From: Elusimicrobiota bacterium
GTDB lineage: Bacteria; CG03; SLGR01; JAGXOG01
DNA length: 64,000 nt
Direction: 5' to 3'
Assembly (NCBI GenBank): GCA_051745145.1
Contig: JBNJDT010000005.1
Span: 1,096-65,095, forward strand
Part shown: positions 27,354-56,700 of the stretch, in pieces
Layout: each line of letters begins with the position of its first letter
Position numbering within the stretch: position 1 is the first letter of the stretch
Position numbers and translations under genes: made by a program
The notes under the pieces: model-generated
The model's database searches: none
Told to the model about the DNA's origin: nothing
Seen by the model: only the letters and a program-made list of their open reading frames with translations

Positions 27354-27431
27354 GGCGGCATCGTCTAGCCAGGGCCAGGACACAGCCCTCTCAAGGCTGC
27401 GACACGGGTTCAAATCCCGTTGCCGCTACCA
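27354..27431 (+). tRNA. tRNA-Glu (anticodon CUC), CCA encoded
   Basis: Acceptor GGCGGCA/TGCCGCT (pair 1-72 is a G-U wobble), D-arm GTCTAGCCAGGGCCAGGAC, anticodon stem-loop CAGCC-CTCTCAA-GGCTG, T-arm ACGGG-TTCAAAT-CCCGT, then A-CCA. Confidence 0.8.
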
Positions 27432-27555: not shown

Positions 27556-28713
27556 ATGTTTGCCCATTTACATTGTCATACAGTAGCTTCTTTTTCGGAT
27601 TCCACTTTATATATAAAAGACGCTGTAAAAAAAGCAGCTCTTGACGGTCAAAAAGGAATGGCTATAACCGATCACGGAGTACTTTCCCTGCCTTTTAAAT
27701 TAATAGAAGAATGTAAGAAATACGATATTATTCCGGCCGTAGGCTGCGAGTTTTATTTTGTAAACGATGCCCTTAAAACTATAAAAAATTCGGATAACCG
27801 GCGTTATCATCTTGTGCTGATGGCTAAAAATAAAGAGGGGATGTCTAATCTAATAAATTTAATAAATGTATCCTGGAAGAAGTATAATTTTAAGGACAGA
27901 AGAGGATTAATAGACTGGCGACTGCTGAAAAAATATAATAAAGGTCTTGTTGCCCTTTCCGGCTGTTACTGGAATATTATAGCCCGCACGGCAGTCAATG
28001 AAGGTTATGATGAGGCCGATAAAGTATTTGGAAAATTTAAAGATATATTCGGATCTGACTTTTACTGCGAAGTGGGCCGTCACGGAGTAAAAACTGAAGA
28101 AAAGGCCAATAAATTACTGGAAAAACTTGCATCCCGGCACAAGGTGAAAATAATTCTTACCAACGACTCTCATTATTTGGACAGTGATGATAGCCTGGCC
28201 CATGACTGTTATATAAAAAGTAGATTTTATCAGTTATCCGATTTTTCCTATGACGGGCGCGGATTTCACTTTCGCACGGAAGAGGAGATGAAAAACCTGG
28301 GCTTTCCCGACCGCTACTTAAATAATACAGTGGAAGTTCTGGAAAAGTGCCGGGCTTCCCGGGATATGTTACCCGTAGGCGGCGTGGTTCCGAAAAATTT
28401 GACCAGGGAAAATTTTAAAAAATTCATTGACCGGGGCCAGGCGGCATATGTACCAAAGATTGTTAAAGTAGAGAAAAAAAGAGCAAGGTGGATCTGTCAG
28501 AAAATGAATTGTTCTGGCCAGGTAAGTAAAAAATTAACCGGTTTATGGAGAGAGATAACTCCCAATACCCGTAAAATAGCCATAAGCTCTAAACCGGATC
28601 TTGAAAAGATCACCCCCCTTATGTACAACAATAGAAAAAGATTTTGTCAGTTTCCCGAGAGGGAATTACTTAAACAGAATGTAACAGTATTGGGTTTATC
28701 CGCAAACGGATGA
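27556..28713 (+). CDS. Stand-alone PHP-domain protein homologous to the DnaE N-terminus; possible dnaE remnant
   Basis: HLHCHT...ITDHG, GCEFY, LSGC, TNDSHYL and FRTEEEM...NTVEVLEKC align with the DnaE PHP domain up to about residue 290. The last ~70 aa are unrelated and no polymerase core follows (bioY overlaps the stop). Confidence 0.6.
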   Translation: MFAHLHCHTVASFSDSTLYIKDAVKKAALDGQKGMAITDHGVLSLPFKLIEECKKYDIIPAVGCEFYFVNDALKTIKNSDNRRYHLVLMAKNKEGMSNLINLINVSWKKYNFKDRRGLIDWRLLKKYNKGLVALSGCYWNIIARTAVNEGYDEADKVFGKFKDIFGSDFYCEVGRHGVKTEEKANKLLEKLASRHKVKIILTNDSHYLDSDDSLAHDCYIKSRFYQLSDFSYDGRGFHFRTEEEMKNLGFPDRYLNNTVEVLEKCRASRDMLPVGGVVPKNLTRENFKKFIDRGQAAYVPKIVKVEKKRARWICQKMNCSGQVSKKLTGLWREITPNTRKIAISSKPDLEKITPLMYNNRKRFCQFPERELLKQNVTVLGLSANG

Positions 28714-29234
28714 AGAGTGTAAAGGGACTGGTATATACAGCTTTATTTGCCGTACTTACCGGTATCGGAGCACTGGTTATTATCCCGGCAGGACCGGTTC
28801 CCATAACTTTACAGACCCTTTTTTGCCTGCTTGCCGGAGCTATTCTTGGAAAAAAATTTGGTCCGGCCAGCCAGGTAATGTATGTATTGCTGGGAATAGT
28901 CGGTATACCCGTTTTTTCGGGAGGGGGGAGCGGTCTGGGAACTCTCTTTGGACCGACCGGCGGATATGTGATGGCATTTATTCCGGCTTCGTATATTACC
29001 GGATTACTTACCCAAAAAAACATGCTTATACCGGGTATGATACTGGCTACCGCTGTTATATATGCCATAGGAACAGTTCAGCTAAAATTAATTACTGGAA
29101 TATCTTTTGGAAAAGCCGTTTTAACGGGGGTAGTTCCTTTTATTCCGGGTGATATTCTGAAAATAACAGCCGGCGCGGGAGTGTATAAGTATCTGGATAA
29201 GATTGGTTTTACCCTTACCGGGGATAAGTTTTGA
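28710..29234 (+). CDS. bioY: Biotin transporter BioY (ECF-type S component)
   Basis: 174-aa polytopic membrane protein with BioY-like motifs (PITLQTLFCLLAGAILG, GGYVMAFIPAS). Confidence 0.85.
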   Translation: MKSVKGLVYTALFAVLTGIGALVIIPAGPVPITLQTLFCLLAGAILGKKFGPASQVMYVLLGIVGIPVFSGGGSGLGTLFGPTGGYVMAFIPASYITGLLTQKNMLIPGMILATAVIYAIGTVQLKLITGISFGKAVLTGVVPFIPGDILKITAGAGVYKYLDKIGFTLTGDKF

Positions 29235-39925: not shown

Positions 39926-40824
39926 AAAAAGTTGACCTCCATTTACATTCTACTCTATCGGACGGGAAACTCACTCCGGTAGAATTAATAAAACAGGCAA
40001 AAAAGAAAAATCTCAAGGCAGTCGCTATTACCGATCACGATATAACCGAAGGGATAGAATCGGCAATTAGATACGGAGCCAAGACCGGTATAGAAGTAAT
40101 ACCCGGAATTGAACTGTCCTGCGAATATAAATCCACTGAAGTTCATTTACTGGGATATTTTATAAACTGGGAAAATAGATGGTTTCAGAGCAAATTAAAA
40201 GTTCTGCAAAAGGCCAGGGAAAGAAGGGCCTATCATATATTAAATAAGCTTCAGAATATAGGGGTAAATATTGATGAGCAGATGCTGTTTGCCCAGGCGG
40301 GGAGCGGGGCCATTGGAAGAATGCACTTTGCCCGCTGTCTGGTAAAGATAGGGGAGGTGAAAACCGTAAGAGAAGCATTCAGAGAATATCTGGGAAAGAA
40401 TTGCCCGGCCTTTGTAAGAAAATTGCGTTTAACTCCTGTCGAAGCTCTTAATATGATTCACCGGGTGGCGGGCATCTCCGTATTGGCCCACCCTTCCTTT
40501 GGCGTCAGTCACAAAAATTTTATTCGCCGTCTGGCCCGGCTGGGGCTTTCGGGAATAGAAATTTATCATCCCCACGTATCGGAGGAAGAACAGAAAAAAT
40601 TTAAAGCAACAGCTTATGAATTGGGGTTATTTGTCACTGGAGGTTCTGATTCTCACGGAATGAGACCGGAAGAAAATCCGGTAGGTAGTATGGAAGTAGA
40701 ATACAGTGCAGTTGAAAATATGAAAAAAGCTTTGCAAAAGGTTGAGTTAAAAAATCGTATTATATTAAATTTGCAGAGCCAAAAATCAACTTTTAAAACC
40801 CGGGAGGTGAAAAAGAGTGTTTAA
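39922..40824 (+). CDS. PHP-family phosphoesterase (TrpH/YciV-like)
   Basis: HLHSTLSDG, AITDHD and GGSDSHG metal-binding motifs. 300 aa. Confidence 0.8.
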   Translation: MKKVDLHLHSTLSDGKLTPVELIKQAKKKNLKAVAITDHDITEGIESAIRYGAKTGIEVIPGIELSCEYKSTEVHLLGYFINWENRWFQSKLKVLQKARERRAYHILNKLQNIGVNIDEQMLFAQAGSGAIGRMHFARCLVKIGEVKTVREAFREYLGKNCPAFVRKLRLTPVEALNMIHRVAGISVLAHPSFGVSHKNFIRRLARLGLSGIEIYHPHVSEEEQKKFKATAYELGLFVTGGSDSHGMRPEENPVGSMEVEYSAVENMKKALQKVELKNRIILNLQSQKSTFKTREVKKSV

Positions 40825-41385
40825 AGTAAAAGAATGCATGATAAAAGAGGTAATGACCGCCAAAAGAGGAACTCCTCTCAATGAGATAATAAAGTTTTTT
40901 AAGGAAAAGCACGTTCATGTTTTGCCGGTAGTAGACAAAGAAGACCGGCTTGTGGGAGCGGTCTCTTTAAATGAAATTACAACTGTATTCGAACCTCATT
41001 CCGCCAAGATGAATAAACTTATGGAGGGAATACCTTTTGTCGATTCAGTTGAAGATAATGAACTCGATCTTGATTATATTACTCCGGAGATGGGTATTCT
41101 TGTAATAGCGGATGAAATAAAGACGGATAGATATCTGTCGGTTCGGCCCGATGATTCAATTTCTAAGGCCTATTCGGTTATGAAGAAAAATAAGACAAAA
41201 TTTTTGATGGTCACCGATGAGCAGGGCCGCTTAAAGGGAGTGCTGGGCATGTTTGATATAGTGTATTTTCTGTTTAAAAATAAAGGTGTTATTCAGTGAC
41301 ACTAAATGTCCTGTTCTCTATAGGAATAATATTTTTAACCGGGGTAATCGGGGCTACTTTAATAAAATATTTAAAATTGCCAAAT
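40815..41385 (+). repeat. Upstream copy of a ~570-bp near-identical direct repeat (Shine-Dalgarno + whole CBS gene + first ~27 codons of the antiporter)
   Basis: Matches 42882..43452 with a single mismatch (GACACTAAAT vs GACTCTAAAT). Identity breaks down after AATAAAATA. Confidence 0.85.
40817..41299 (+). CDS. CBS-domain pair protein (copy 1)
   Basis: Two CBS motifs, 160 aa. GTG start with a GGGAGG Shine-Dalgarno. Overlaps the downstream antiporter. Confidence 0.8.
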   Translation: MFKVKECMIKEVMTAKRGTPLNEIIKFFKEKHVHVLPVVDKEDRLVGAVSLNEITTVFEPHSAKMNKLMEGIPFVDSVEDNELDLDYITPEMGILVIADEIKTDRYLSVRPDDSISKAYSVMKKNKTKFLMVTDEQGRLKGVLGMFDIVYFLFKNKGVIQ

Positions 41386-42483
41386 ATTACTTCTTATATT
41401 TTTGTGGGTATTCTGATAGGGCCTGAATTGTTGGATTTAATATCTCCGGCTCTTATGAATTCCACTAAGTTTGTTACCAATGTGGCTTTAAGTTTCATAG
41501 CTTTCGGACTGGGCCAAAATTTTTCAATTAAAAAACTGCAATCTATAGGGAGTAATATAGTTGTCTTAACTATTGGTCAGATGGTAGTTACATTTTTATT
41601 GGTAGGGGGAAGTTTATATATGTTGCCGGATATTTCCTTTCATATGGCTATTCTGGCGGGAGCTATAGCTACCGCCTCGGCTCCAATAGCGGTGATAACA
41701 ATAATAAGAGAATACCGTTCTAAAGGGAATTTTACGGACAACTTATTGGGAGTGGTTGCCTTCGCCGACGGAGGGTCAATTATATTGTTTGCCGTAATTT
41801 TGGCAGTGGCCCGGGGGATAACTCAAACGGGCGGCAGTCTGGGGAGTTTGGTGGTTTCCGGCTTTATGGAAGCTCTGGTAGAAATTGGTGGTGCGATTTT
41901 AGTGGGAGTTATTATAGGAGCCATATTTTCTAAAACTCCCAAGTACGTGGATGATTCAATTGATATATTATTGTATATTCTCGGTTTTGTTCTGCTTACT
42001 TCCGGGGTAGCCTTACATTTTGGTTTTTCGGCACTTCTGGCAAATATGACTTTGGGGATATATCTAGAAAATAGAGGGGAATCAGAGTTTAGATTTTTTG
42101 ATGCGTTAAAAGATTTGGAAACTCCGTTCTATCTTTTATTCTTTGTACTGGCCGGTGCTAAACTGGAACTGGAAATGCTTAAATATTTACCGGCTGCGGC
42201 AACTGTATATATTATTACCCGGATTGGGGGGAAGGTGTTTGGGTCCTATCTGGGAGCAGTAGTGGCATCTGCAAAGAAAGAAGTAAAAAAATATTTGGGG
42301 ATGGCTCTTATTCCCCAGGCCGGTGTGGCTATAGGTTTTGCTCTTATTGTTCAGTCTGTATTTCAAAATACAGGAGGAGAAAAGATATTTTTATTAATAA
42401 TTTCCACTACGGTTGTAAATGAAATAATAGGGCCAGTATTTACTAAAATAGCTCTTCAAAAATCCGGAGAAATTAGAAGTTGA
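41296..42483 (+). CDS. CPA2-family cation/H+ antiporter (copy 1)
   Basis: About 12 TM segments with the Na+/H+-exchanger-family fold. GTG start. Confidence 0.85.
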   Translation: MTLNVLFSIGIIFLTGVIGATLIKYLKLPNITSYIFVGILIGPELLDLISPALMNSTKFVTNVALSFIAFGLGQNFSIKKLQSIGSNIVVLTIGQMVVTFLLVGGSLYMLPDISFHMAILAGAIATASAPIAVITIIREYRSKGNFTDNLLGVVAFADGGSIILFAVILAVARGITQTGGSLGSLVVSGFMEALVEIGGAILVGVIIGAIFSKTPKYVDDSIDILLYILGFVLLTSGVALHFGFSALLANMTLGIYLENRGESEFRFFDALKDLETPFYLLFFVLAGAKLELEMLKYLPAAATVYIITRIGGKVFGSYLGAVVASAKKEVKKYLGMALIPQAGVAIGFALIVQSVFQNTGGEKIFLLIISTTVVNEIIGPVFTKIALQKSGEIRS

Positions 42484-42628
42484 TTTTTTGAATAGCTGTT
42501 ATAATTTTATATAATACTATAAAATATAAGGAATTGAATTTTTGCTCAATTCAAAAGCAGCAGGTGCCGCTGAAAAAGTTAGAGTAACTATCCCTTATAT
42601 ATATAAATTTTGAGGTAATAAAAGTTTA

Positions 42629-42660
42629 GCCCGCTTGAAAAAAAATCAAGCGGTTTTTTT
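42629..42660 (+). terminator. Rho-independent terminator after antiporter copy 1
   Basis: GCCCGCTTGA-AAAAAAA-TCAAGCGG hairpin followed by a T7 run. Confidence 0.7.
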
Positions 42661-42664
42661 ACGG

Positions 42665-42693
42665 TTGACAGGTTTTGGAAAAACAATCATATT
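42665..42693 (+). promoter_or_regulatory. Candidate promoter for CBS/antiporter copy 2
   Basis: TTGACA, a 17-nt spacer, then CATATT. Lies immediately after the terminator and ~190 nt upstream of the copy-2 start. Confidence 0.3.
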
Positions 42694-42881
42694 CTGTAGT
42701 TATTTTAGGTAAAAAGGGATAAATATAAAATTTTTATTTAGAGGATTCAAAATTCTGCTTAGAACTTTAAAAACAAATTTAGTAAAGTGTAATACAGGGT
42801 GAAAATATAAAGTTAATTTTATGAAAGCCTAATTTGATAAATCCATAAATTAGGAAACGCATTAGCCGGGAGGCAAAATTA

Positions 42882-43452
42882 GAGTGTTTAAAGTAAAAGA
42901 ATGCATGATAAAAGAGGTAATGACCGCCAAAAGAGGAACTCCTCTCAATGAGATAATAAAGTTTTTTAAGGAAAAGCACGTTCATGTTTTGCCGGTAGTA
43001 GACAAAGAAGACCGGCTTGTGGGAGCGGTCTCTTTAAATGAAATTACAACTGTATTCGAACCTCATTCCGCCAAGATGAATAAACTTATGGAGGGAATAC
43101 CTTTTGTCGATTCAGTTGAAGATAATGAACTCGATCTTGATTATATTACTCCGGAGATGGGTATTCTTGTAATAGCGGATGAAATAAAGACGGATAGATA
43201 TCTGTCGGTTCGGCCCGATGATTCAATTTCTAAGGCCTATTCGGTTATGAAGAAAAATAAGACAAAATTTTTGATGGTCACCGATGAGCAGGGCCGCTTA
43301 AAGGGAGTGCTGGGCATGTTTGATATAGTGTATTTTCTGTTTAAAAATAAAGGTGTTATTCAGTGACTCTAAATGTCCTGTTCTCTATAGGAATAATATT
43401 TTTAACCGGGGTAATCGGGGCTACTTTAATAAAATACCTCAAGATGCCCAAT
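42882..43452 (+). repeat. Downstream copy of the ~570-bp near-identical direct repeat
   Basis: See 40815..41385. Confidence 0.85.
42884..43366 (+). CDS. CBS-domain pair protein (copy 2; 100% amino-acid identity to copy 1)
   Basis: The 160-aa translation is identical to that of 40817..41299. Confidence 0.8.
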   Translation: MFKVKECMIKEVMTAKRGTPLNEIIKFFKEKHVHVLPVVDKEDRLVGAVSLNEITTVFEPHSAKMNKLMEGIPFVDSVEDNELDLDYITPEMGILVIADEIKTDRYLSVRPDDSISKAYSVMKKNKTKFLMVTDEQGRLKGVLGMFDIVYFLFKNKGVIQ

Positions 43453-44550
43453 ATAACCTCTTATCTTCTGGTGGGTATATTAATCGGTCCCGAAATTTTT
43501 AATCTTATTCCCGGTGAGCTTTTGAATTCGGCCCACTTGTTTACAAATATAGCTTTGAGTTTTATAGCTTTTGATTTAGGACAGAACTTCACCCTTAAAA
43601 AATTGAGGAATATTGGCCGGGAAGTAGCCTGGATTACAGTGGCTCAGATTATTTTTTCATTTCTTCTGGTGGGGTTGGGTATGTATTTTATAGTAGGAAC
43701 GGAAATGCATATTGCCATATTACTGGGAGCGATAGCTACGGCAACTGCCCCGATAGCTGTTATAATGGTAATAAGGGAGTATAAAGCCAGGGGGAATTTT
43801 ACCGATACACTGCTGGGGGTAGTGGCTCTAGATGATGGCGGTGGGATAATAATGTTTGCTGTTTTTCTGGCAGTGGCCCGGGGTATGACTATGGTCGGGG
43901 AAACTCTGGGAACTTTGATAACTACCGGTTTTATTGAAGCTTCTGTTGAGATAGGCGGAGCGGTATTACTGGGAATTATTTTAGGAGTATTGTTTGCTAA
44001 TTTCCCTAAATTTATCGACAGTTCTATAAGTATACTTATATATATACTGGGATTTGTTTTAATTAACACCGGGATATCACAGCATTTTGGTTTTTCTGTA
44101 CTGCTTGCCAATATGTCTATGGGGATATATTTGGCCAATCAGTCGGGAACTGAATACAGATTTTTTGAAACTTTAAATGAGATAGAGCCACCTTTTTATT
44201 TGTTGTTTTTTGTTCTGGCCGGTGCTGAACTTCAGTTTGGGATGCTTAAACATCTTCCTCTGGCAGCGGGAGTATATTTTATTACCCGTTTTACGGGAAA
44301 AATACTCGGCTCCTATCTGGGAGCAGTAGCGGTGTCGGCGAGAGATGAAGTAAAAAAATACCTGGGAATGGCTCTAGCTCCTCAGGCCGGTGTGGCCATA
44401 GGTTTTGCACTGATAGTGAAGAGTACTTTTAAAGGGATAGGTGGAGAAGAAGTGTTTTTTATAATAATTGCCACTACAATTTTAAATGAAATTTTCGGCC
44501 CGGTATTTACAAAAATAGCTCTTCAAAAGTCCGGAGAAACTAAAGTTTAA
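43363..44550 (+). CDS. CPA2-family cation/H+ antiporter (copy 2; diverged paralog, ~65% identical to copy 1)
   Basis: The first 27 aa match copy 1 (one substitution). The remainder is diverged throughout but clearly homologous. Confidence 0.85.
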   Translation: MTLNVLFSIGIIFLTGVIGATLIKYLKMPNITSYLLVGILIGPEIFNLIPGELLNSAHLFTNIALSFIAFDLGQNFTLKKLRNIGREVAWITVAQIIFSFLLVGLGMYFIVGTEMHIAILLGAIATATAPIAVIMVIREYKARGNFTDTLLGVVALDDGGGIIMFAVFLAVARGMTMVGETLGTLITTGFIEASVEIGGAVLLGIILGVLFANFPKFIDSSISILIYILGFVLINTGISQHFGFSVLLANMSMGIYLANQSGTEYRFFETLNEIEPPFYLLFFVLAGAELQFGMLKHLPLAAGVYFITRFTGKILGSYLGAVAVSARDEVKKYLGMALAPQAGVAIGFALIVKSTFKGIGGEEVFFIIIATTILNEIFGPVFTKIALQKSGETKV

Positions 44551-44596
44551 TTCTTGAATACCGGTTTAGAATTTGATATAAGGAAATCATAAGATA

Positions 44597-49549: not shown

Positions 49550-49627
49550 GGGGTGGTAGTTCAGATTGGTAAGAACGCCGGCCTGTCAAGCCGGAGGCCG
49601 CGAGTTCAAGTCTCGTCCACCCCGCCA
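49550..49627 (+). tRNA. tRNA-Asp (anticodon GUC), CCA encoded
   Basis: Acceptor GGGGTGG/CCACCCC, D-arm GTTCAGATTGGTAAGAAC, anticodon stem-loop CCGGC-CTGTCAA-GCCGG, T-arm GCGAG-TTCAAGT-CTCGT, then G-CCA. Confidence 0.85.
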
Positions 49628-49678
49628 TTATTATTAGTAAAAAAGATTTACACTAATTATATAGCGAACTACCCATTA

Positions 49679-52600
49679 ATGAATAAAGAAAAAAAAGAAA
49701 CAAAAAATTACAAAGTTGTCCTGGAAGCCCGTAAAGATGCTCGTAAAAGATTACTGGATGCCCTTGACGAATTTGACCCCCAGGAGGATTCTGAAAGAAT
49801 AGAAAAAGTAAAACAGACCCTAGTCCAGATAAACAAAGAGATAAAAGAACTTCAGAAAAAAACAAGTAATTCGGAGCAAAATACCTCAAAATCCGGTCCC
49901 CGGGCCGACCAGCCTAGTCCTTCCGACCAAGAAGAAGAGAAAGAAAAAGAGGAAACTGAAAAATCAGAGAAGAGCATTGAAGAGATAGATAATTCCCGGA
50001 AAACTCTTCAGTCTGAAGTCAAGGATTTGAAAAACGATATATCCAGTGAAAGAGATAAATGGGAAGAAAAATTATCAGCTAAACAAAGAGAGATAAATGC
50101 TCTTAAATCAAAGATGAATCTCCGCCAGGCCAAGCTCCGGGCCCAGTATCAGTTGAAGAAGCAGAATCTGGAGAGGACCCGTTCGGAATATGAAAAAAAA
50201 TTAAAGCAGGAAAGAGAGAAAGACACCTCTTTTGATCAGGAACGACAGCGATGGTCCAAACGTCTGGAAGAAAAGCAGCGAATTATAGATAAATTAAAAA
50301 TTGAAATTTCTTCAATGGAAAATAGATATCATCAGGATATTGAAGAAATCAGGGATGAGTACAGCCGTGAAAAAGAAGCCCTTCAGGAGAGAGTTAAAAA
50401 CCTCCAAAACCAGAAAAATCGGGAGACTGAACAGCTGCGGTCCAGATTATCTGAAAAACAACGCGCTATTATAAATTTAGAACAGGAACTGGATACAAAA
50501 GAAGCAGATTATGAAAGGGCCCGCCATAATCATTTAAAAGAGATTGAATCTTTAAAAGAAGATTTTAGCAGTGAAAAAGAGAGCATAAGAGAGGAAAAAG
50601 AGTCAAGTATAGATGAGTTAAAGAATGAGATTTCTTTTAAGGAAAAAGAGATCCGTAATTTAAAACAGGAAATTTCTGTAATTGAAGAAAAGAGAAAAAT
50701 AGCCCGGGAGGAATTTGAAGATCAATTAGAAAAATTAAGGCAGTCACAGAACGAAGAGACAAAAAAATTAGATAAAAAAATAGAGAATAAGAATAATTTA
50801 ATACAGCAGTTAAAAGATGAAATAGCGGATATAAAAAGAGACCATTCTATTAAGTTAAATAATTTAAATAATAAAAATGAACAGAAAAAAAATGAACTTA
50901 AACAAAAAATCCGGGACCGGGAAGAAAAAATAGAAAAAGTACGCGAAAAATTTTCTACCCAAAAAACGGAGCATGAGAAAAAAGTAATAAATCTAGAAAA
51001 TGTAATTGATAAAAAAGTTGAGCAGTTAGGTAATGTAACCGATAAAAAAGATAAAGAAATTCAGAATTACAAAGCCCGCCTGGAAGAGATAAAAGAAAAA
51101 TTTTTCGGAATGCAGAGAGAATACGAAAAAATTAAGACTGAAAAAGAAAAGGAAAAAGAAAAATTTGAATCTCAAATAGAAAGTTTAAAAGAAAATGCGG
51201 TTTTGGAAAAGGAAAATCTGCTTGAAAAAATAACTCAAAAAGAAGATAAAATTGGCCAGCTTAATAACGAACTGGAAACCGCCGACCAGCAGCGGGAAGA
51301 TTTGCAAAATAAATATAAAAGAAAACAGGCTAACTTAAAAGAAAGCCTGGCTGATAGAGAAAAAGAGATTGAAAGAATAGCCTCGAAAAAAGAGGAACAG
51401 AAAAAAGAATATCAGGATTATTTAGCGGACTTAAAGGAAAAGTTAGCCGAAGAAAAGAGAAAAACAGATGATTTAAAAAGGGAAAAGAGACAGGTAAAAG
51501 AAGAATTATCGTCAAAAATAAAAAACTTAAACAGTACTAAAGAACTGGAAAAGAAAAATCTCCGGGAAAAAATTAAAAGTAAAAACCGAAAGATAATTGA
51601 AATTGACAATGAATTGGAAAAGGCAAAAGACAGTAATAAAAATTTACAAAAAGATTGGAACCGGGAAAGGGAGAACTTAAAACAGGATTTTAACCAGAAA
51701 CTCACTGAGAAAGATAAACGTATTGAAGAACTTTCAGAATTAGTAGATAGTTTTGAAAATAAATTTAATGTAGAAAAGACAAAGAGAAAAGAAGAAAATA
51801 AAAACTGGGCCAGTAAAACCGGAAATCTGCAGCAAAAGATAAATGAACTCAATGACAATTTAAATACAGCTCAAAATAAGATAGAGCAGTTAGAGCAGAA
51901 AAAAGAGCAGCAGGCTGATCAATTTGAATCCCAAAGAGAAAATTGGGAAAGCAGCATGGAAACTATTAGATCCCGTCTTCACGAAACAGAGGTCGAGTAT
52001 TCGACTAAAGTAGAGGGTCTAAAAGAGAAAATAAACGGACTTAATAAAGAACGGGTCCAGATAACCGACAAATATAACAGCCGGGTTCAGGAACTTGAAA
52101 AACAGTTAAATAATCGGGATAATGATATAGCTCTACTTAAGCAGGAGCACAATCGGGAAAAAGAGAATATCCTTAAAAACTTAAGAAAAGCTGATGAGAG
52201 GTATGAAAAAATAAAAGAAGAATTTTATGCTTCTCGCGATAAAATAAAAGAGATGGCAGGTTCTAATGAAAAGTTAAAAGAACAGCTTGAAGATACTCAA
52301 GCTAAACTGGAAGAGATTAAAACAGAGAAAGATAATACAATCCAGAAATTAAAAGAAGAGCTTGAAGAACAAGAATATAAAGATGAACTTTTACAGAAAA
52401 GGTATAATAAGTTAAAAGCAGATTTTAAGAACAAAGAAGAAAGTTACAGTAAAACAATAAATAAATTAAAAAATAAATTAACTAAAAAAACCTGGGAGGT
52501 AAATAAAGTGCGTGAGGAATTAGAGAGTTTACTTGATGAATTTGAGGAAAGAGTAACAACCCAGCGAAGGATCTGGGAAGAGAAATTAAAAAATAAAGAA

Positions 52601-53713
52601 GAACAGTTAAAATCCATAAAAGAAGAAGCTCAAAATACAAAAGCCAGTTTGGAAGAAAGAATTAATGAATTAAAAGATTCTAATTGGAAACTCCAGGTGC
52701 AGATTGAAGAAGACAGGAAAGCCTGGCGGGAAGATTATGAACAGAAAGAGCAGGAATACCGGAAGCTCAAAAAAGCAAAGGAAGAAAAAGAGCAGCAGCT
52801 TCGCGAAAAGTTAGCTGAAAAGGAGAGTAGCTGGGTAAACCAGAAAAGTGAACTTCAAAAAAAGATAAATCATTTAGAAGGGAAATTGGAAAGTAAAATT
52901 CCGGCTAAGGATGAACAGATAGATAGATTAAAAGAAGAGCTTGCTCAAACTAAAGCCACTCTTGAGAAAAAAGAAAACTATTATGATGAAAAGATAAATA
53001 CCATTAAAGAAGAGATGGATGATAAGCTTTCTCAAATGAATGAAACCTTAAAAGTACTTGAAGAAAAGAATATTGATTTACGTTCTAAAATTTCTGATAG
53101 AGAATCCAAACTTAAAACTCAAAAAAGTGAGTTTGAGAATGAAATTAAGATACTAAAAGACAAGTTTGAAACAAATATTAGTAAATTACAGGCGGAATTA
53201 GCCCGCCAGCAAAAAGAGAATAAAGAGCTCAAAGAATTACTGGATAAAAAAGAGAGAAAACTCCAAAGCGAGGAGGAAATCAAAAAAGAAGAAGTGGGGC
53301 AGATAAGAACCCGGTTAGAAAAAAATATTGAAGATTTCCGTATGAAGATGAAGGAGATAGAGGATAACAATAAACCTTCCGAATACGAAATCGAAGAGTA
53401 TTTAGAAGAGGTAGAAGCTGAAGAAAGGGATGAGGAAAATTCTACCTCAAAAGATCCTGAACCGGAAGAAGATGAAGAAGAATTAGAGGAAGAATTGTCT
53501 GTAAAACAGCAAATTCAAAATAAAAAAAACGAATTAAAAGAATTAAAAAAGAAGACCAAGAAAAAAATAAAGAAAAAGGAAAAAGAGTTTAAAAAAGCAA
53601 CCAGTAAAAAAGAAAAAGATAAGATCAAAGAAGAATTAATAGAACTTGAACAAAAAAGTAGGCAGCGGGAAAAAGCAATTAAAGAAAAGTTGTCGAAATT
53701 AAAGAAGAAATAG
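49679..53713 (+). CDS. Giant coiled-coil protein 1 (1344 aa), E/K/R/L/Q-rich, with no recognizable enzymatic domain
   Basis: Begins MNKEKKETKNYK (the ORF-track start at 49553 runs through the tRNA and is spurious). After a short Pro/Ser-containing N-terminal patch it is almost free of Gly/Pro/Cys. Heptad-like charged sequence with recurring W-x-E-K/R-L motifs. Poly-K C-terminus. Confidence 0.7.
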   Translation: MNKEKKETKNYKVVLEARKDARKRLLDALDEFDPQEDSERIEKVKQTLVQINKEIKELQKKTSNSEQNTSKSGPRADQPSPSDQEEEKEKEETEKSEKSIEEIDNSRKTLQSEVKDLKNDISSERDKWEEKLSAKQREINALKSKMNLRQAKLRAQYQLKKQNLERTRSEYEKKLKQEREKDTSFDQERQRWSKRLEEKQRIIDKLKIEISSMENRYHQDIEEIRDEYSREKEALQERVKNLQNQKNRETEQLRSRLSEKQRAIINLEQELDTKEADYERARHNHLKEIESLKEDFSSEKESIREEKESSIDELKNEISFKEKEIRNLKQEISVIEEKRKIAREEFEDQLEKLRQSQNEETKKLDKKIENKNNLIQQLKDEIADIKRDHSIKLNNLNNKNEQKKNELKQKIRDREEKIEKVREKFSTQKTEHEKKVINLENVIDKKVEQLGNVTDKKDKEIQNYKARLEEIKEKFFGMQREYEKIKTEKEKEKEKFESQIESLKENAVLEKENLLEKITQKEDKIGQLNNELETADQQREDLQNKYKRKQANLKESLADREKEIERIASKKEEQKKEYQDYLADLKEKLAEEKRKTDDLKREKRQVKEELSSKIKNLNSTKELEKKNLREKIKSKNRKIIEIDNELEKAKDSNKNLQKDWNRERENLKQDFNQKLTEKDKRIEELSELVDSFENKFNVEKTKRKEENKNWASKTGNLQQKINELNDNLNTAQNKIEQLEQKKEQQADQFESQRENWESSMETIRSRLHETEVEYSTKVEGLKEKINGLNKERVQITDKYNSRVQELEKQLNNRDNDIALLKQEHNREKENILKNLRKADERYEKIKEEFYASRDKIKEMAGSNEKLKEQLEDTQAKLEEIKTEKDNTIQKLKEELEEQEYKDELLQKRYNKLKADFKNKEESYSKTINKLKNKLTKKTWEVNKVREELESLLDEFEERVTTQRRIWEEKLKNKEEQLKSIKEEAQNTKASLEERINELKDSNWKLQVQIEEDRKAWREDYEQKEQEYRKLKKAKEEKEQQLREKLAEKESSWVNQKSELQKKINHLEGKLESKIPAKDEQIDRLKEELAQTKATLEKKENYYDEKINTIKEEMDDKLSQMNETLKVLEEKNIDLRSKISDRESKLKTQKSEFENEIKILKDKFETNISKLQAELARQQKENKELKELLDKKERKLQSEEEIKKEEVGQIRTRLEKNIEDFRMKMKEIEDNNKPSEYEIEEYLEEVEAEERDEENSTSKDPEPEEDEEELEEELSVKQQIQNKKNELKELKKKTKKKIKKKEKEFKKATSKKEKDKIKEELIELEQKSRQREKAIKEKLSKLKKK

Positions 53714-53724
53714 ATTAACAGGAT

Positions 53725-56700
53725 ATGTCCAGAGAAGAACTTAGAAAACAAGTAGAAAAATTAAGAGAAAGGCTACGCCGGGAAGAAAAGAAACGCCGGC
53801 AGCTGCTCCGCGAGAAAGAAAAAGAAAATTTTGAGCTAAAACAGAATTACGAAAAGAGAAAAAATGAGCTGGAAAATAAGATAGCTGATTTAAAGAATAA
53901 AATAGAGCACCTGGATAGCCGGAAAAAGACCGAATTGAAAAAGCAGCAGCAGGCCTATAATGATAAGATAACTGCCAAAGAGAAAGAAGTTGAACAGCTC
54001 AGGAGAGAAAAAACTCAGCTTGCCAGAAAAGATAAATTAAAATTTAAGCAGCACCAATCCGATGCCGAACAGAAGATAAACGAGCTAAAAAGAAAAAAGA
54101 GAGAACTTAAAACTCAAATTGAAGAACAAAAATCAAAATTTTCCGATTTTCAGGACAGATTGGAAGCAGAAAAACAGCAGCTTAAACACGAGAAAGAGTT
54201 AACCAGGACAGATTTACAAAAAGAAAAGGCGATTTTATCTCAGGAATATCGGGAGAAAGAAGAGGAATACAACCGGAAGATAAGAGAATTAAGCAGCAGA
54301 GTGGATTTTTTAGAGGAAAAACTTGAAGATAAAAAAGAAACACTCAAAAGAGAAGTTAGTGCCCGGGATGCCGAAATAAATGCTTTAAGGGAAGAAAAAA
54401 AGAGTGAAATACAGAGATTAAACAATAGAATAAATGAGAAAAACCGTCAGAAAGAAGAACTTCTAAGTGAACTTGAAGAAGTTAAAAAAAGATATCATGA
54501 TGAGATAGATTCAAAGATTAGTGAAAATAAAGTTTTAGAATCCCAACTTACATTAAAAGAAGAAGAGCTTACCGAAAAAATCCGTCAAAAAAACAATAAA
54601 ATAGAAAGCCTAACCCAAGAGATAAACAGTTTGAAAAGAGAAACTGATGATAAAATAAGAAATCTGGAGAATATCCGGTCTAAAGAAAAAGAAGAATACG
54701 AAAACCGCATAAGTCGTTTGAATTTTGAAATTGAAAGTTTGAATGAGAAAATTGAGAAGACAAATGAGATGCGGGAGGTAGAGAATAAAAACTGGCGGGA
54801 AAAGATTGAACAGCTGCAGAATGATCATTCTGTAGAGATAGCCAGAAGGGATATAGAAGAAGAGGAAAGAGAAAGCGAATACAGATCCCAGATAACCGAA
54901 TTAAAAAATAAGTTGAAACAGGTTGATAAAAGTCTCGAACAGTTAGAAGATGAAAAACAGGATTTAAAAGATGAAACCCGAAAAAGAATAGCCGATAAAC
55001 AGGATAAAATAGATAATTTAGAAAGAACAATAGAAAAGTTAAAATCCGAGAAAGAAGATCAGCGAAAAAGAAAAGAAGCCCAAATAGATCGCATTAAAGA
55101 AGATCTGGAAGCCAAACTTGAAAACTACAAAGAACTTAGCGCCGAAGAAAGCAGGGATCTTAAGGGTAAACTTGAGCGGGTAAAAGAAGAGAAAAATAAT
55201 CTCCAGCTGGAGAAAGATAAGCAGATTGAGTCTCTTAATCAAAAATTAAGAGCTAAGATCGAAGAGCTTGATAATTTCAGGGAAGTTTCTGCAAATAAAG
55301 AGGCCAAGTGGCGGGAAAGACTCCAGGAAGTCAAACAGGAAAAAAATATAACGGAAGATGAAAAAGAAGAAAAAGAGAAACAGCTTGAAAACCTGCGGAA
55401 TCGTCTGGACCGGGAAACAAGAGAGATGGCCGAAGAACTGGAAAAAAAGAAAGAACACTGGGAATGGCTTGTCTCTCAGAAACAGAATGAAATACAGAAT
55501 TTAAAAGATAAGTATCGCAGTGAGATACATAAGATAAAAGAGGAGTATCAGGATAAAGAGCAGAAGTTAAAAGCAGCCCGCGCCGGACTGGAAAAATCCG
55601 TTAAAGAATTAAGTGACCGGATGGAGTCCGAGCGGTCGGAAAAATATGAAGAATTAAAAGAAAAAGACGAAAAAATTCAGAATTTGAAAAGTCGACTCGA
55701 ATCCCAGCGAGTCGAGCTGAAACAGAAGTATAAAGACGAATACAACGAACTTGAAAAGCGCCGGACTAACTTAAGTCAAAAGGTAAATGAGCTGGAAAAT
55801 AAGCTGCATGCTCAAAGAGAAACCTGGCAGGAACGGCTGCAAACTAAAGAGAGGGAACTGGAAGATGCCCGGCAAAATATGAAGGACAGGGAAGAAGAGC
55901 TTTACAATGTCTGGCGGGAAAAAAGAAAAGCTAATAATAAAAGAATTTTTGAGTTATCCAATAAAATTGAAGAACTGGAGGAGAAAAAGAAAAGAGAAAA
56001 CCGGGAATTAGAAGAAAAATTAGAACGACAAAAAGAAAAAAATCGCGAGAACAATATAGAGAACATCCGCCGCGAGAAAGAAATTGAGACAGAGTATAGA
56101 GAAAAGATAAACAGTCTTATCAGAGAAAAAGATAAATTAAAGAATGACAATAGTGTGTTAAAAGAGAAATTAAATTCGGAAAGAATAAAATCTTTTAGAA
56201 AGTTACGGGAAAAATCTGAAGAAATAGAAAAGATCCGGGATAAGGCCCGCAGTGACAGCGAGCAAATATATAATGATTACAAAGAAAAGGAAAAGGAATT
56301 GCGGGAGACTCAGAATAGGCTGGATGACCTCCGGTTTAAGAAAAACAGGGAGATAAAAGAATTAAACCGCAAATTACAGGAAAAGGAAAGTGAAAAAACC
56401 CGTCTGCTTAATGAAATAGAGCATTTTGAAGAAGATAAAAAAAGAGTTATCCGGAGAAGGCAGGAAGATTTTGAGAGGGATAAGAAACTGCTGCGCAATG
56501 AACTTGAAAGATTAAAAAATAAGAAAGATGAACTGTATGAAAAATTGGAGCAAAAAGAAAATAGACAGAATGAAAAGATAAATAATTTAATGCAGGAATT
56601 CCAGGAAAAAGAAGATAACTTAATAAATAATTTTGCACAAAAAGAGAAGAAACTCGTCGGGAAAATATCTAACCTGGAGGATGAACTTAATCAGGCAAAC

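What the first reader, a model, noticed from the sequence alone, without database searches (positions are those of the whole stretch)
27556..28713. Stand-alone PHP domain that is a truncated DnaE N-terminus
The 385-aa ORF aligns along about 300 residues with the N-terminal PHP domain of DNA polymerase III alpha. Metal-ligand motifs are conserved (HLHCHT, ITDHG, GCEF, TNDSHYL, and the FRTEEEM…NTVEVLEKC block that precedes the palm domain in DnaE). The ORF then ends after ~70 unrelated residues, and bioY begins overlapping its stop. No polymerase core follows in any frame. It is flanked by tRNA-Glu(CUC) upstream. It could be a remnant of a dnaE duplication. It could also be a functional free-standing PHP 3'-5' exonuclease/phosphoesterase derived from DnaE; PHP domains of some DnaE proteins are active proofreading nucleases. 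Both would be unusual.
Basis: partly seen in the sequence, partly recalled or inferred. Interest (0 to 1): 0.5.

Follow-up and report, generated by a model that had tools for sequence, protein, structure and literature searches.

The report
Polymerase-less DnaE relative keeping PHP nuclease
This gene is a conserved, selected offshoot of the bacterial replicative DNA polymerase that has lost its DNA-synthesis centre but keeps every metal-binding residue of the built-in PHP nuclease domain, so it probably works as a free-standing nuclease or phosphoesterase in a few uncultured bacterial phyla.

Summary
The 385-aa ORF at 27556-28713 is real. Residues 2-~290 match the DnaE N-terminus (E as low as 1.6e-56). 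No polymerase core follows in the window.

It is not a pseudogene, an assembly artefact or a simple truncation. It belongs to a small discrete family: about 28 clusters at 50% identity among 1.84 billion representatives, and 19 of 185,579 species genomes, all uncultured MAGs. Orthologs at 71% and 48% identity are the same length and strictly syntenic. dN/dS is 0.14 (PHP 0.11, tail 0.18-0.24), similar to neighbouring housekeeping genes. All nine PHP metal ligands (HHDHEHCDH) are kept in every complete member.

Most relatives add C-terminal TPR repeats. One sub-family keeps a whole but dead palm.

Best reading: a polymerase-dead DnaE derivative retained for its trinuclear-metal PHP hydrolase, probably a 3'-5' exonuclease or 3'-end processor. 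The activity is inferred, not shown. It is the C-family analogue of polymerase-less PolX proteins, and I found no description of it.

The parts
27556..28713 (+). Whole gene: 385-aa polymerase-less DnaE derivative (NCBI MGM0441173.1, annotated 'PHP domain-containing protein', Elusimicrobiota MAG)
   Evidence: The start is confirmed by the conserved MF(A/S/T)HLH N-terminus across the family.
27556..28359 (+). C-family (DnaE-type) PHP domain, residues 1-268
27571..27579 (+). Metal ligands H6 and H8 (HLHCH motif)
   Evidence: Nearly invariant in A1. HHDHEHCDH in 31/31 and 27/27 complete members.
27598..27600 (+). Metal ligand D15
27673..27675 (+). Metal ligand H40 (ITDHG)
   Evidence: Invariant
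27748..27750 (+). Metal ligand E65 (GCEF)
   Evidence: Invariant
27808..27810 (+). Metal ligand H85 (YHLVL)
   Evidence: Invariant
27964..27966 (+). Metal ligand C137 (LSGC)
   Evidence: Invariant
28165..28173 (+). Metal ligands D204 and H206 (TNDSHY)
   Evidence: Invariant. They correspond to Mtb DnaE1 D226/H228. Mutating D226 kills the exonuclease (PMC5636811).
28360..28425 (+). Linker, residues 269-290. It sits where about 130-150 residues of the DnaE palm have been excised, including the GPGRGS dNTP loop and the PDxDxDF catalytic aspartates.
   Evidence: The hhalign gap falls opposite DnaE ~285-425. Motif positions in real DnaE: GPGRGS at 354, PDxDxDF at 395.
28426..28695 (+). Remnant of the DnaE thumb and second palm segment, residues ~291-380. 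Predicted as a compact alpha/beta module packed on the PHP domain.
27354..27431 (+). tRNA-Glu(CUC) upstream; a conserved syntenic neighbour, not part of the protein's function
   Evidence: The same tRNA sits at the same place in L001 and L002.
28710..29234 (+). bioY. Its start overlaps the stop of the PHP gene (ATGA), so the two are probably co-transcribed and translationally coupled.
   Evidence: BioY Pfam in the orthologous loci, with the same overlap there.

Best explanation
The gene encodes a functional, polymerase-dead derivative of a DnaE-type (C-family) DNA polymerase.

Shown:
- A dnaE paralog lost everything from the fingers onward.
- It lost the catalytic aspartates. In this lineage the whole first half of the palm was excised as well.
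- It kept the PHP barrel with the complete nine-residue trinuclear-metal site.
- It kept a reduced thumb/palm-C module that packs against the PHP domain as it does in the intact polymerase.
- Selection acts on both parts, most strongly on the PHP domain and absolutely on the ligands.

Inferred: the protein is a Zn/Mn-dependent phosphodiesterase acting on nucleic-acid 3' ends (3'-5' exonuclease and/or 3'-end cleaning). This is what ligand-complete PHP domains do in Thermus and Mycobacterium DnaE and in PolX. The thumb/palm remnant would serve as a structural buttress and possibly a DNA guide.

Most relatives carry a C-terminal TPR array, presumably a protein-docking module. The window's 385-aa form appears to be a secondarily TPR-less version with a shortened thumb.

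Confidence by step: about 0.9 that it is a selected, polymerase-dead DnaE derivative; about 0.75 that the PHP metal site is catalytically used; about 0.45 that the substrate is DNA 3' ends.
For: Family and selection:
- Homologs of the same or longer architecture. There is a clean score gap between about 28 family representatives (947-303 bits, matches running past the PHP) and ordinary DnaE (<=280 bits, PHP only).
- Strict synteny of three independent Elusimicrobiota assemblies, all with the same ORF length.
- dN/dS 0.14 against lpxA 0.11 and bioY 0.17. Long forms: PHP 0.06-0.23, remnant 0.20-0.36 in six of seven pairs (0.55 in one), TPR 0.15-0.36.

Active site:
- HHDHEHCDH in every complete member. 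This is the motif used to call a C-family PHP 'active' (PMC12926913). The same nine residues bind three Zn in the Mtb DnaE1 exonuclease (PMC5636811).

Polymerase loss:
- The palm segment with GPGRGS and PDxDxDF is absent.
- NCBIfam DnaE scores are far below cutoff (192 vs 434 bits).

Remnant:
-.
- Pfam DNA_pol3_alpha positions 112-247 only in family member P0052.
- The P0052 sub-family keeps a colinear but dead whole palm, an intermediate stage.

Precedent: PolX proteins that lost polymerase activity remain efficient 3'-5' exonucleases through their PHP domain (PMC9226535). 'PolX-like' proteins lack the polymerase domain altogether (PMC12926913).

Context hint: in the Auribacterota-like clade the gene always sits directly downstream of RNase HIII on the same strand, while the surrounding genes vary.
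Against: - No biochemical data exist for any member. Substrate and activity rest on analogy.
- No functionally informative neighbour is conserved across phyla. In the window the partners are msbA, tRNA-Glu and bioY.
- The RNase HIII link is confined to one clade and could be inherited synteny.
- The strongly basic tail of the window protein (net +16) is not a family-wide trait. Long forms are near neutral or acidic, so DNA binding by the remnant is not supported family-wide.
- One Dependentiae member is fused to nucleotide cyclase and AAA_16 domains. That hints at a signalling or small-nucleotide role rather than DNA repair.
- I could not check whether the same genome carries a normal dnaE or dnaQ.
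Confidence: 0.62

Rival explanations
1. PHP phosphoesterase acting on something other than DNA 3' ends. Candidates are RNA (like the 5'-3' exoribonuclease RNase AM), small nucleotides (pAp, cyclic or linear oligonucleotides) or another phosphoester. In this reading the DnaE ancestry says nothing about the present substrate.
For: - One family member is fused to two nucleotide cyclase domains and an AAA_16 ATPase.
- No DNA-repair neighbour is conserved across phyla.
- The remnant is not consistently basic.
Against: - All characterised ligand-complete C- and X-family PHP domains are DNA 3'-5' exonucleases (PMC5636811, PMC9226535).
- The thumb, which contacts duplex DNA in DnaE, is retained and under selection.
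- RNase HIII adjacency in one clade points to nucleic-acid processing.
- The cyclase fusion rests on a single partial contig.
Confidence: 0.25
2. Non-catalytic scaffold or regulatory subunit. [quoted passage not shown]
For: The E. coli PHP domain has a structural role only (PMC3666897 abstract; PMC5636811). TPR repeats in most members suggest protein-protein interaction.
Against: Inactive PHP domains lose ligands: E. coli has 5 of 9 altered, and a single change suffices in Gka PolC. Here all nine are kept in every complete member, at down to roughly 30% overall identity. That is hard to explain without catalysis or at least obligatory metal binding.
Confidence: 0.07
3. Half of a split replicative polymerase. 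The PHP part would be encoded separately from a PHP-less polymerase core elsewhere in the genome, as in phage split DnaE or intein-split cyanobacterial DnaE.
For: Split DnaE genes exist. P0023 (UDG+PHP, 502 aa) is followed two small genes later by an 817-aa DNA_pol3_alpha+finger+HHH_6 gene in a phage-like contig. PHROG phrog_7513 is a PHP-only phage family.
Against: - The protein retains its own thumb and palm-C pieces, which a separate core would duplicate.
- The excision is internal, not a clean split.
- Most members continue into TPR repeats.
- No core gene lies in the window or in any of about 30 loci.
- There are no intein features.
- The P0052 sub-family carries a complete palm with the catalytic aspartates substituted.
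Confidence: 0.03
4. Decaying pseudogene, or a frameshift or assembly artefact of a full-length dnaE.
For: Such artefacts exist in the databases. P0124 and P0034 are error-laden dnaE fragments, and P0124 even mimics an internal palm deletion.
Against: - The same 385/386-aa ORF with the same downstream bioY overlap appears in independent ENA, JGI and NCBI assemblies.
- dN/dS is 0.14.
- Family-specific motifs absent from DnaE (GS[YF]SDS, RGLVDW, GRHG, HDxxIK[ST]RF) mark a long separate history.
- No polymerase core in any frame.
Confidence: 0.02

Closest known systems
PHP 3'-5' exonuclease domain of DnaE1 (Thermus Pol III alpha; M. tuberculosis DnaE1)
   Same: Same fold and closest sequence relatives. 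The same nine ligands (5 His, 3 Asp/Glu, 1 Cys) coordinate three Zn in Mtb DnaE1 (PMC5636811). The PHP keeps the same spatial relation to the thumb and palm.
   Different: Here the domain is not attached to a working polymerase. The catalytic palm half, fingers, beta-binding, OB and tau-binding regions are gone. Proofreading in cis is therefore impossible.
Noncanonical PolX and 'PolX-like' proteins (family X polymerases that lost polymerase function but keep the PHP exonuclease)
   Same: Same evolutionary logic: polymerase site lost by substitutions and deletions, PHP nuclease site conserved (PMC9226535; PMC12926913). This is the best functional analogue.
Split phage DnaE PHP subunits (e.g. 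P0023 UDG-PHP; phrog_7513)
   Same: A DnaE-type PHP encoded as a separate polypeptide without a polymerase core.
   Different: Those have a partner gene nearby encoding the complete core. They lack thumb/palm relics and the family-specific motifs. In the NJ tree P0023 falls with DnaE, not with this family.
E. coli-type inactive PHP domain of Pol III alpha
   Different: E. coli has 5 of 9 ligands altered and no nuclease activity. Here all nine are intact.
Stand-alone PHP phosphoesterases (RNase AM/YciV, TrpH-type pAp phosphatases, histidinol phosphatase, YcdX)
   Same: Free-standing PHP barrel with a trinuclear metal site.

Membership tests
PHP domain superfamily (Pfam PF02811) | Score above the Pfam gathering threshold over the full domain | tested here: met
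   121.2 bits against a cutoff of 26.4; profile positions 1-164 of 164
C-family PHP, 'active' class | Nine-residue ligand motif HHDHEH[C/H]DH (criterion of PMC12926913; residues that bind three Zn in PMC5636811) | tested here: met
   H6 H8 D15 H40 E65 H85 C137 D204 H206. Identical in all complete family members.
C-family PHP, 'active' class | Measured metal content and 3'-5' exonuclease activity | not testable with these tools
   Needs purified protein
DNA polymerase III alpha subunit (DnaE; TIGR00594 / PRK05673) | Full-length match above the curated cutoff | tested here: not met
   192 bits vs 434 (TIGR00594); 179 vs 1002 (PRK05673). Only model positions 1-~317 are matched.
DNA polymerase III alpha subunit (DnaE) | Palm with the dNTP-binding GS loop and the PDxDxDF catalytic aspartates, plus a third Asp in GLLKxDxLGL | tested here: not met
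   The segment is excised (hhalign gap; motif positions). In a low-confidence part of the tail alignment, the third-Asp position reads T377 in TVLGL.
DNA polymerase III alpha subunit (DnaE) | Fingers, beta-clamp-binding, HhH, OB and C-terminal domains | tested here: not met
   The protein ends at the palm-C/fingers boundary. No core hit in the window.
Split DnaE (phage or intein type) | A partner gene encoding the polymerase core; a clean break between PHP and core; intein halves for the cyanobacterial type | tested here: not met
   No core in the window or loci. The protein keeps its own thumb/palm-C remnant. Contrast with L029. The rest of the genome could not be searched.
PolX / PolX-like PHP exonucleases | PHP of the X-family lineage, with or without the PolXc domain | tested here: not met
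RNase AM / TrpH-type and histidinol-phosphatase PHP enzymes | Score above the NCBIfam cutoffs | tested here: not met
   RNaseRnm 18.8 vs 375; nucleoside bisphosphate phosphatase 18.6 vs 400; NF004981 22.2 vs 117
Known anti-phage defence proteins (PADLOC) | Any model hit | tested here: not met
   No hit for the window protein or for three relatives at E<=0.01

The most novel reading that the evidence does not exclude
The family is a trans-acting PHP nuclease subunit of the replication/repair machinery, a C-family-derived counterpart of DnaQ. It would be docked to the replisome or to RNase HIII-type primer and R-loop processing through its TPR array (or, in the short Elusimicrobiota forms, through the basic remnant or C-terminus). 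It would supply proofreading or 3'-end cleaning in lineages whose resident DnaE has an inactive PHP and which lack a canonical DnaQ. The 2026 polymerase survey explicitly notes that some bacteria with an inactive DnaE1 PHP have no identifiable DnaQ and 'may possibly use noncanonical proofreaders' (PMC12926913).
Probability: 0.12. Interest if true: 0.8.

Novelty: new variant of a known kind. Interest (0 to 1): 0.55.

Why it matters
Replicative C-family polymerases are regarded as universally intact in bacteria. The two systematic surveys discarded any homolog without a recognisable polymerase domain (PMC3919608; PMC12926913), so a family like this would have been filtered out.

The family shows that the C-family underwent the same kind of change already documented for family X: the polymerase is lost and the PHP nuclease is kept. 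It also preserves the intermediate stages:
- dead but complete palm (P0052 group);
- excised palm with a full thumb plus TPR (most members);
- excised palm, shortened thumb and no TPR (this gene).

That gives a natural experiment on which parts of DnaE the PHP domain needs in order to fold and function. It also provides a compact, confidently modelled candidate for studying PHP nuclease chemistry free of polymerase activity. If the protein acts in trans on replication or repair intermediates, it would add a new accessory nuclease in poorly known phyla (Elusimicrobiota, Auribacterota/PVC, Hydrogenedentota, Caldisericota, Dependentiae).

Tried and rejected
- **Pseudogene or assembly artefact.** Rejected by synteny, equal ORF length in independent assemblies and dN/dS.
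- **'Unrelated' C-terminal tail.** Rejected by tail-only hhalign, tblastn, AF2 and structure superposition.
- **Basic tail as family-wide DNA-binding evidence.** Checked and dropped. Only the window's own clade is strongly basic.
- **bioY or tRNA-Glu as functional partners.** Both are conserved only within the Elusimicrobiota clade and are absent elsewhere.
- **RNase HIII as a universal partner.** True for all Auribacterota-like loci but absent in five other lineages.
- **P0124 as a 'fresh' intermediate with the same deletion.** Rejected on reading the sequence. It is a real dnaE fragment with a frameshifted end.
- **Defence-system membership.** No PADLOC hit.
- **Promoter/terminator scan around the gene.** Counts are at chance level and uninformative.
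- **AlphaFold database search for UniProt members.** Library unavailable.
- **Locating the window's own contig by exact protein look-up.** Not on record.
- **Full-length dnaE/dnaQ in the same genome.** Could not be tested.
Full report
**Observation**

The ORF listing gives a 385-aa ATG ORF at 27556..28713 on the + strand. The next ORF, 28710..29234, overlaps its stop, and the sequence there reads ...GGATGAAG, a 4-nt ATGA overlap. ARAGORN finds tRNA-Glu(CUC) at 27354-27431.

Pfam assigns PHP (PF02811) to residues 4-176 at E=6.9e-35. NCBIfam DnaE models match residues 2-287/306 to model positions 1-~317: TIGR00594 at 1.6e-56, PRK05673 at 1.3e-52 and PRK06826 at 2.4e-52. PolC, DnaE2, histidinol phosphatase, RNase AM and PolX models are far weaker, and no DnaE model comes near its full-length cutoff. 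The best solved relative is T. aquaticus Pol III alpha, residues 7-290. tblastn with a DnaE core (residue 291 to end) finds nothing in the window.

**It is a family, not a one-off**

The word-indexed search of 5.8 billion protein clusters returns these relatives:
- The identical NCBI protein, 'MAG: PHP domain-containing protein [Elusimicrobiota bacterium]' (MGM0441173.1).
- Relatives of the same length at 71% (P0002, 385 aa) and 48% identity (P0003, 386 aa).
- A set of ~580-aa proteins with PHP plus C-terminal TPR repeats, from Auribacterota ('Ca. Euphemobacter') and PVC-group MAGs, at 36-45% identity.

An exhaustive HMMER profile search of 1.84 billion 50%-identity representatives shows a clean break. 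About 28 representatives score 947 down to 303 bits, with matches that extend well past the PHP domain. Below them comes a plateau of ordinary 1,100-1,200-aa DnaE proteins at <=280 bits, matching only profile positions 2-272.

A scan of 185,579 species-representative genomes used the family-specific motif HDx[LYI]IK[TS]RF and found 19 loci. All are uncultured MAGs: Elusimicrobiota, PVC group/Auribacterota, Caldiserica, Hydrogenedentota and unnamed bins. This count is a lower bound, because some representatives vary the motif.

A neighbour-joining tree of PHP domains, without bootstrap, places all members in one clade apart from the sampled DnaE PHP domains.

**Selection**

The three short-form Elusimicrobiota genes come from independent ENA, JGI and NCBI assemblies. 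All sit in the same block: bamA-ompH-lpxD-lpxC/fabZ-lpxA-msbA-tRNA-Glu(CUC)-PHP-bioY(overlapping)-DUF456-oppBCDF.

Nei-Gojobori dN/dS values, window gene against its 71% ortholog:

| Region or gene | dN/dS |
|---|---|
| Whole gene | 0.14 |
| PHP domain | 0.11 |
| Residues 271-385 | 0.24 |
| Residues 290-385 | 0.18 |
| lpxA (neighbour) | 0.11 |
| bioY (neighbour) | 0.17 |
| msbA (neighbour) | 0.05 |

dS is about 1.5, close to saturation, so these values are rough, but they are clearly well below 1.

Less saturated pairs of long forms (dS 0.5-1.1) give PHP 0.11-0.23, remnant 0.25-0.36 and TPR 0.28-0.36. Across all seven pairs, including the more saturated ones, the ranges are PHP 0.06-0.23, remnant 0.20-0.55 and TPR 0.15-0.36.

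The pseudogene and artefact readings are therefore rejected.

**Active site**

The nine PHP ligands are H6, H8, D15, H40, E65, H85, C137, D204 and H206. They are present in 31 of 31 complete members from the first two searches and in 27 of 27 complete 50%-identity representatives. The three exceptions are two N-terminally truncated calls and one protein with an internal gap.

HHDHEH[C/H]DH is the criterion for an 'active' C-family PHP in the 2026 survey, which also notes that PHP domains of C-family polymerases are 'frequently inactivated' (PMC12926913). In M. tuberculosis DnaE1 these nine residues bind three Zn ions and form the proofreading 3'-5' exonuclease. E. coli (5 of 9 altered) and Gka PolC (1 of 9 altered) are inactive, and D23 or D226 mutants are dead (PMC5636811).

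The spacing here (H6/H8, +7 to D15, +25 to H40, +25 to E65, and D204-x-H206) matches the Mtb numbering as I recall it. The D23 and D226 positions are given in the paper.

**Anatomy of the rest**

*Profile comparison.* Comparing the family with five real DnaE N-terminal halves threads the family, up to residue ~376 of the window protein, onto DnaE positions 1-545. One large gap falls opposite DnaE ~285-425. In real DnaE that interval holds the GPGRGS loop (position ~354) and the PDxDxDF catalytic aspartates (~395).

*Tail alone.* The score above is dominated by the PHP domain, so I repeated the comparison with the tail only, against DnaE stripped of its PHP:

| Query | E-value | Note |
|---|---|---|
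| Long forms | 8e-8 | probability 94.5% |
| Whole family | 1.3e-7 | |
| Four short forms alone | 0.07 | same register |

The matched DnaE region runs from '...QIITFGTMaArgAiRDVGR...' through 'LEGxPRhxsxHAAGVVI..PL...vTQ' to the 'GLLKxDxLGL' strand, which is the thumb plus the second palm segment. An independent plain tblastn of the DnaE core hits a long-form tail at E=5.6e-5, with 30% identity over 111 aa. Pfam itself detects DNA_pol3_alpha profile positions 112-247 of 260 in family member P0052.

*Structure prediction, window protein.* AlphaFold2 gives mean pLDDT 89.2 and pTM 0.90. Residues 290-380 are at pLDDT 91-95 and form a compact alpha/beta module.
- Foldseek gives query-normalised TM 0.80-0.83 to full-length Taq, E. 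coli and Mtb polymerases, against 0.60 to the isolated E. coli PHP.

The protein is PHP, then an excised catalytic half-palm, then a thumb/palm-C relic. In the window's clade the thumb is shortened by a further ~25 residues and there is no TPR.

**An intermediate form**

The P0052 cluster has four members of 532-550 aa from separate assemblies. It carries the family signature motifs but aligns colinearly with DnaE 2-538 without the big gap (E=5.9e-46). The GS loop is still recognisable ('GRGAGSATAY'). Where DnaE has PDxDxDF it reads '...FAHLALSC...'. It ends at the same palm-C boundary as the window protein.

Inferred order of events: loss of the fingers and C-terminus together with polymerase-site decay, then excision of the dead half-palm, then gain of TPR in most lineages and its loss in the window's clade.

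By contrast P0124, which at first looked like a fresh version of the same deletion, is an ordinary dnaE fragment with a frameshifted end.

**Context**

Across phyla no neighbour is conserved.
- In the Auribacterota-like clade the gene always lies directly downstream of an RNase HIII-type gene (DUF3378+RNase_HII) on the same strand. Presence of sppA upstream varies, and the genes downstream vary.
- L024 and L028 share a divergent SpoU methylase.
- L012 has a ComM-like ATPase upstream.
- L011 has an AhpC-metallophosphatase upstream.
- One partial Dependentiae protein fuses the module to two nucleotide cyclase domains and an AAA_16 ATPase.

No PADLOC defence model matches. PHROGs match only through the PHP domain.

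**Split-polymerase rival**

P0023 (UDG+PHP) lies in a phage-like contig, two small genes upstream of an 817-aa polymerase core gene. Free PHP subunits of split DnaE therefore do exist. Our family differs in four ways:
- It keeps its own thumb/palm-C.
- It usually runs on into TPR repeats.
- It has no core gene nearby.
- It includes a sub-family with a complete but dead palm.

**Mechanism**

Shown:
- A selected protein of DnaE origin.
- No polymerase catalytic residues.
- A complete, invariant trinuclear-metal ligand set.
- A remnant that folds against the PHP domain as in the parent enzyme.

Inferred:
- It is a Zn/Mn-dependent phosphodiesterase. The most likely activity is a 3'-5' exonuclease or 3'-end-cleaning enzyme on DNA, by analogy with ligand-complete PHP domains of DnaE1 and PolX (PMC5636811, PMC9226535).
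- The remnant is retained as a structural buttress and possibly a strand guide. In Mtb DnaE1 the exonuclease site lies on the far side of the thumb from the polymerase site.
- The TPR array docks a partner.

The strongly basic tail of the window protein (net +16, pI 10.4) is lineage-specific, so it is weak evidence at best.

**Comparison with the literature, and novelty**

[quoted passage not shown] The 2026 survey discarded sequences without a reliably identified polymerase domain and used only complete genomes (PMC12926913). Neither describes a C-family homolog of this kind in the passages retrieved, and two full-text searches found none.

The closest described phenomenon is in family X: noncanonical PolX proteins that are polymerase-dead but efficient 3'-5' exonucleases (PMC9226535), and 'PolX-like' proteins that lack the polymerase domain (PMC12926913).

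I therefore rate this a new variant of a known kind. It is rare, confined to uncultured phyla, and of unknown cellular role.

**Limits**

- I could not check whether the same genome has a normal dnaE or dnaQ. All ~2000 genomes examined by Timinskas et al. have at least one PolIII alpha (abstract), so one is expected here.
- The activity and substrate are inferred.
- dS is near saturation for the window pair.
- The tree has no support values.

Noticed in passing
window 40814-44552: Tandem duplication of a two-gene cassette: a CBS-domain protein (160 aa) and a Na+/H+ exchanger (395 aa). The two CBS genes (40817-41299 and 42884-43366) are 100% identical at the nucleotide level. The adjacent exchanger copies differ at 369 positions (about 69% identity). 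This suggests gene conversion or an assembly quirk.
   Followed up: partly
window 49553-58584: Two adjacent giant ORFs (1386 aa and 1619 aa) with no Pfam hit at E<=1e-5, followed by a 726-aa TPR protein (58616-60796). tRNA-Asp (49550-49627) overlaps the mechanical start of the first ORF.
   Followed up: no
L029 2546-7213: Phage-like contig with a split DnaE. A UDG-family domain is fused to a DnaE-type PHP (P0023, 502 aa). After two small genes (one is YopX) comes a separate 817-aa gene with DNA_pol3_alpha+finger+HHH_6. Thymidylate synthase and dCTP deaminase/dUTPase lie upstream.
   Followed up: partly
L004-L009, L013-L023, L025, L027 (e.g. L005 5057-7746): In every Auribacterota-like locus the PHP-TPR gene lies immediately downstream of an RNase HIII-type gene (DUF3378+RNase_HII) on the same strand, with a 6-~250 bp gap. 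sppA upstream is present or absent, and the downstream genes vary.
   Followed up: partly
P0052 cluster (P0052, P0196-P0198; no locus fetched): A sub-family with the family's signature motifs and all nine ligands. It has a colinear, complete but catalytically dead palm (GS loop recognisable, PDxDxDF replaced) and ends at the palm-C boundary. It appears to be an evolutionary intermediate between DnaE and the excised forms.
   Followed up: partly
P0072 (NCBI MBP7654207.1, Ca. Dependentiae; 4.3-kb contig, partial): The PHP-remnant module is fused to two adenylate/guanylate cyclase catalytic domains and an AAA_16 ATPase. It is a single occurrence on one short contig. It could hint at a nucleotide-signalling role, or it could be a gene-call fusion.
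   Followed up: partly
P0066 (744 aa), P0067 (837 aa), P0098 (600 aa): Family members with 300-400-residue C-terminal extensions that match no Pfam family.
   Followed up: no
window 28675-28710 (residues 374-385) and the C-termini of P0002-P0004: The short forms end in Q[NG][IV]x[IVF]... (QNVTVLGL, QGITIVGL, QGIYTDTL, QNIFLKDV). From memory, this resembles C-terminal beta-clamp-binding motifs such as Pol IV QLVLGL. However, the segment is also the homolog of the DnaE GLLKxDxLGL strand and is predicted as a beta-strand, so the resemblance may be chance.
   Followed up: no
P0124, P0034, P0027 (database proteins): Short 'PHP-only' or 'deleted' DnaE-like proteins that are really error-laden fragments of ordinary dnaE, with frameshifted tails such as HDHAG..FEDG.P. 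P0124 even mimics an internal palm deletion. This is a caution for anyone mining polymerase-less DnaE homologs.
   Followed up: yes
L024 6125-6886 and L028 6513-7274: A SpoU-family RNA methylase gene lies divergently upstream of the PHP-TPR gene in both the Hydrogenedentota locus and an unnamed MAG. L028 also has a SNF2/RapA-like helicase further upstream.
   Followed up: no
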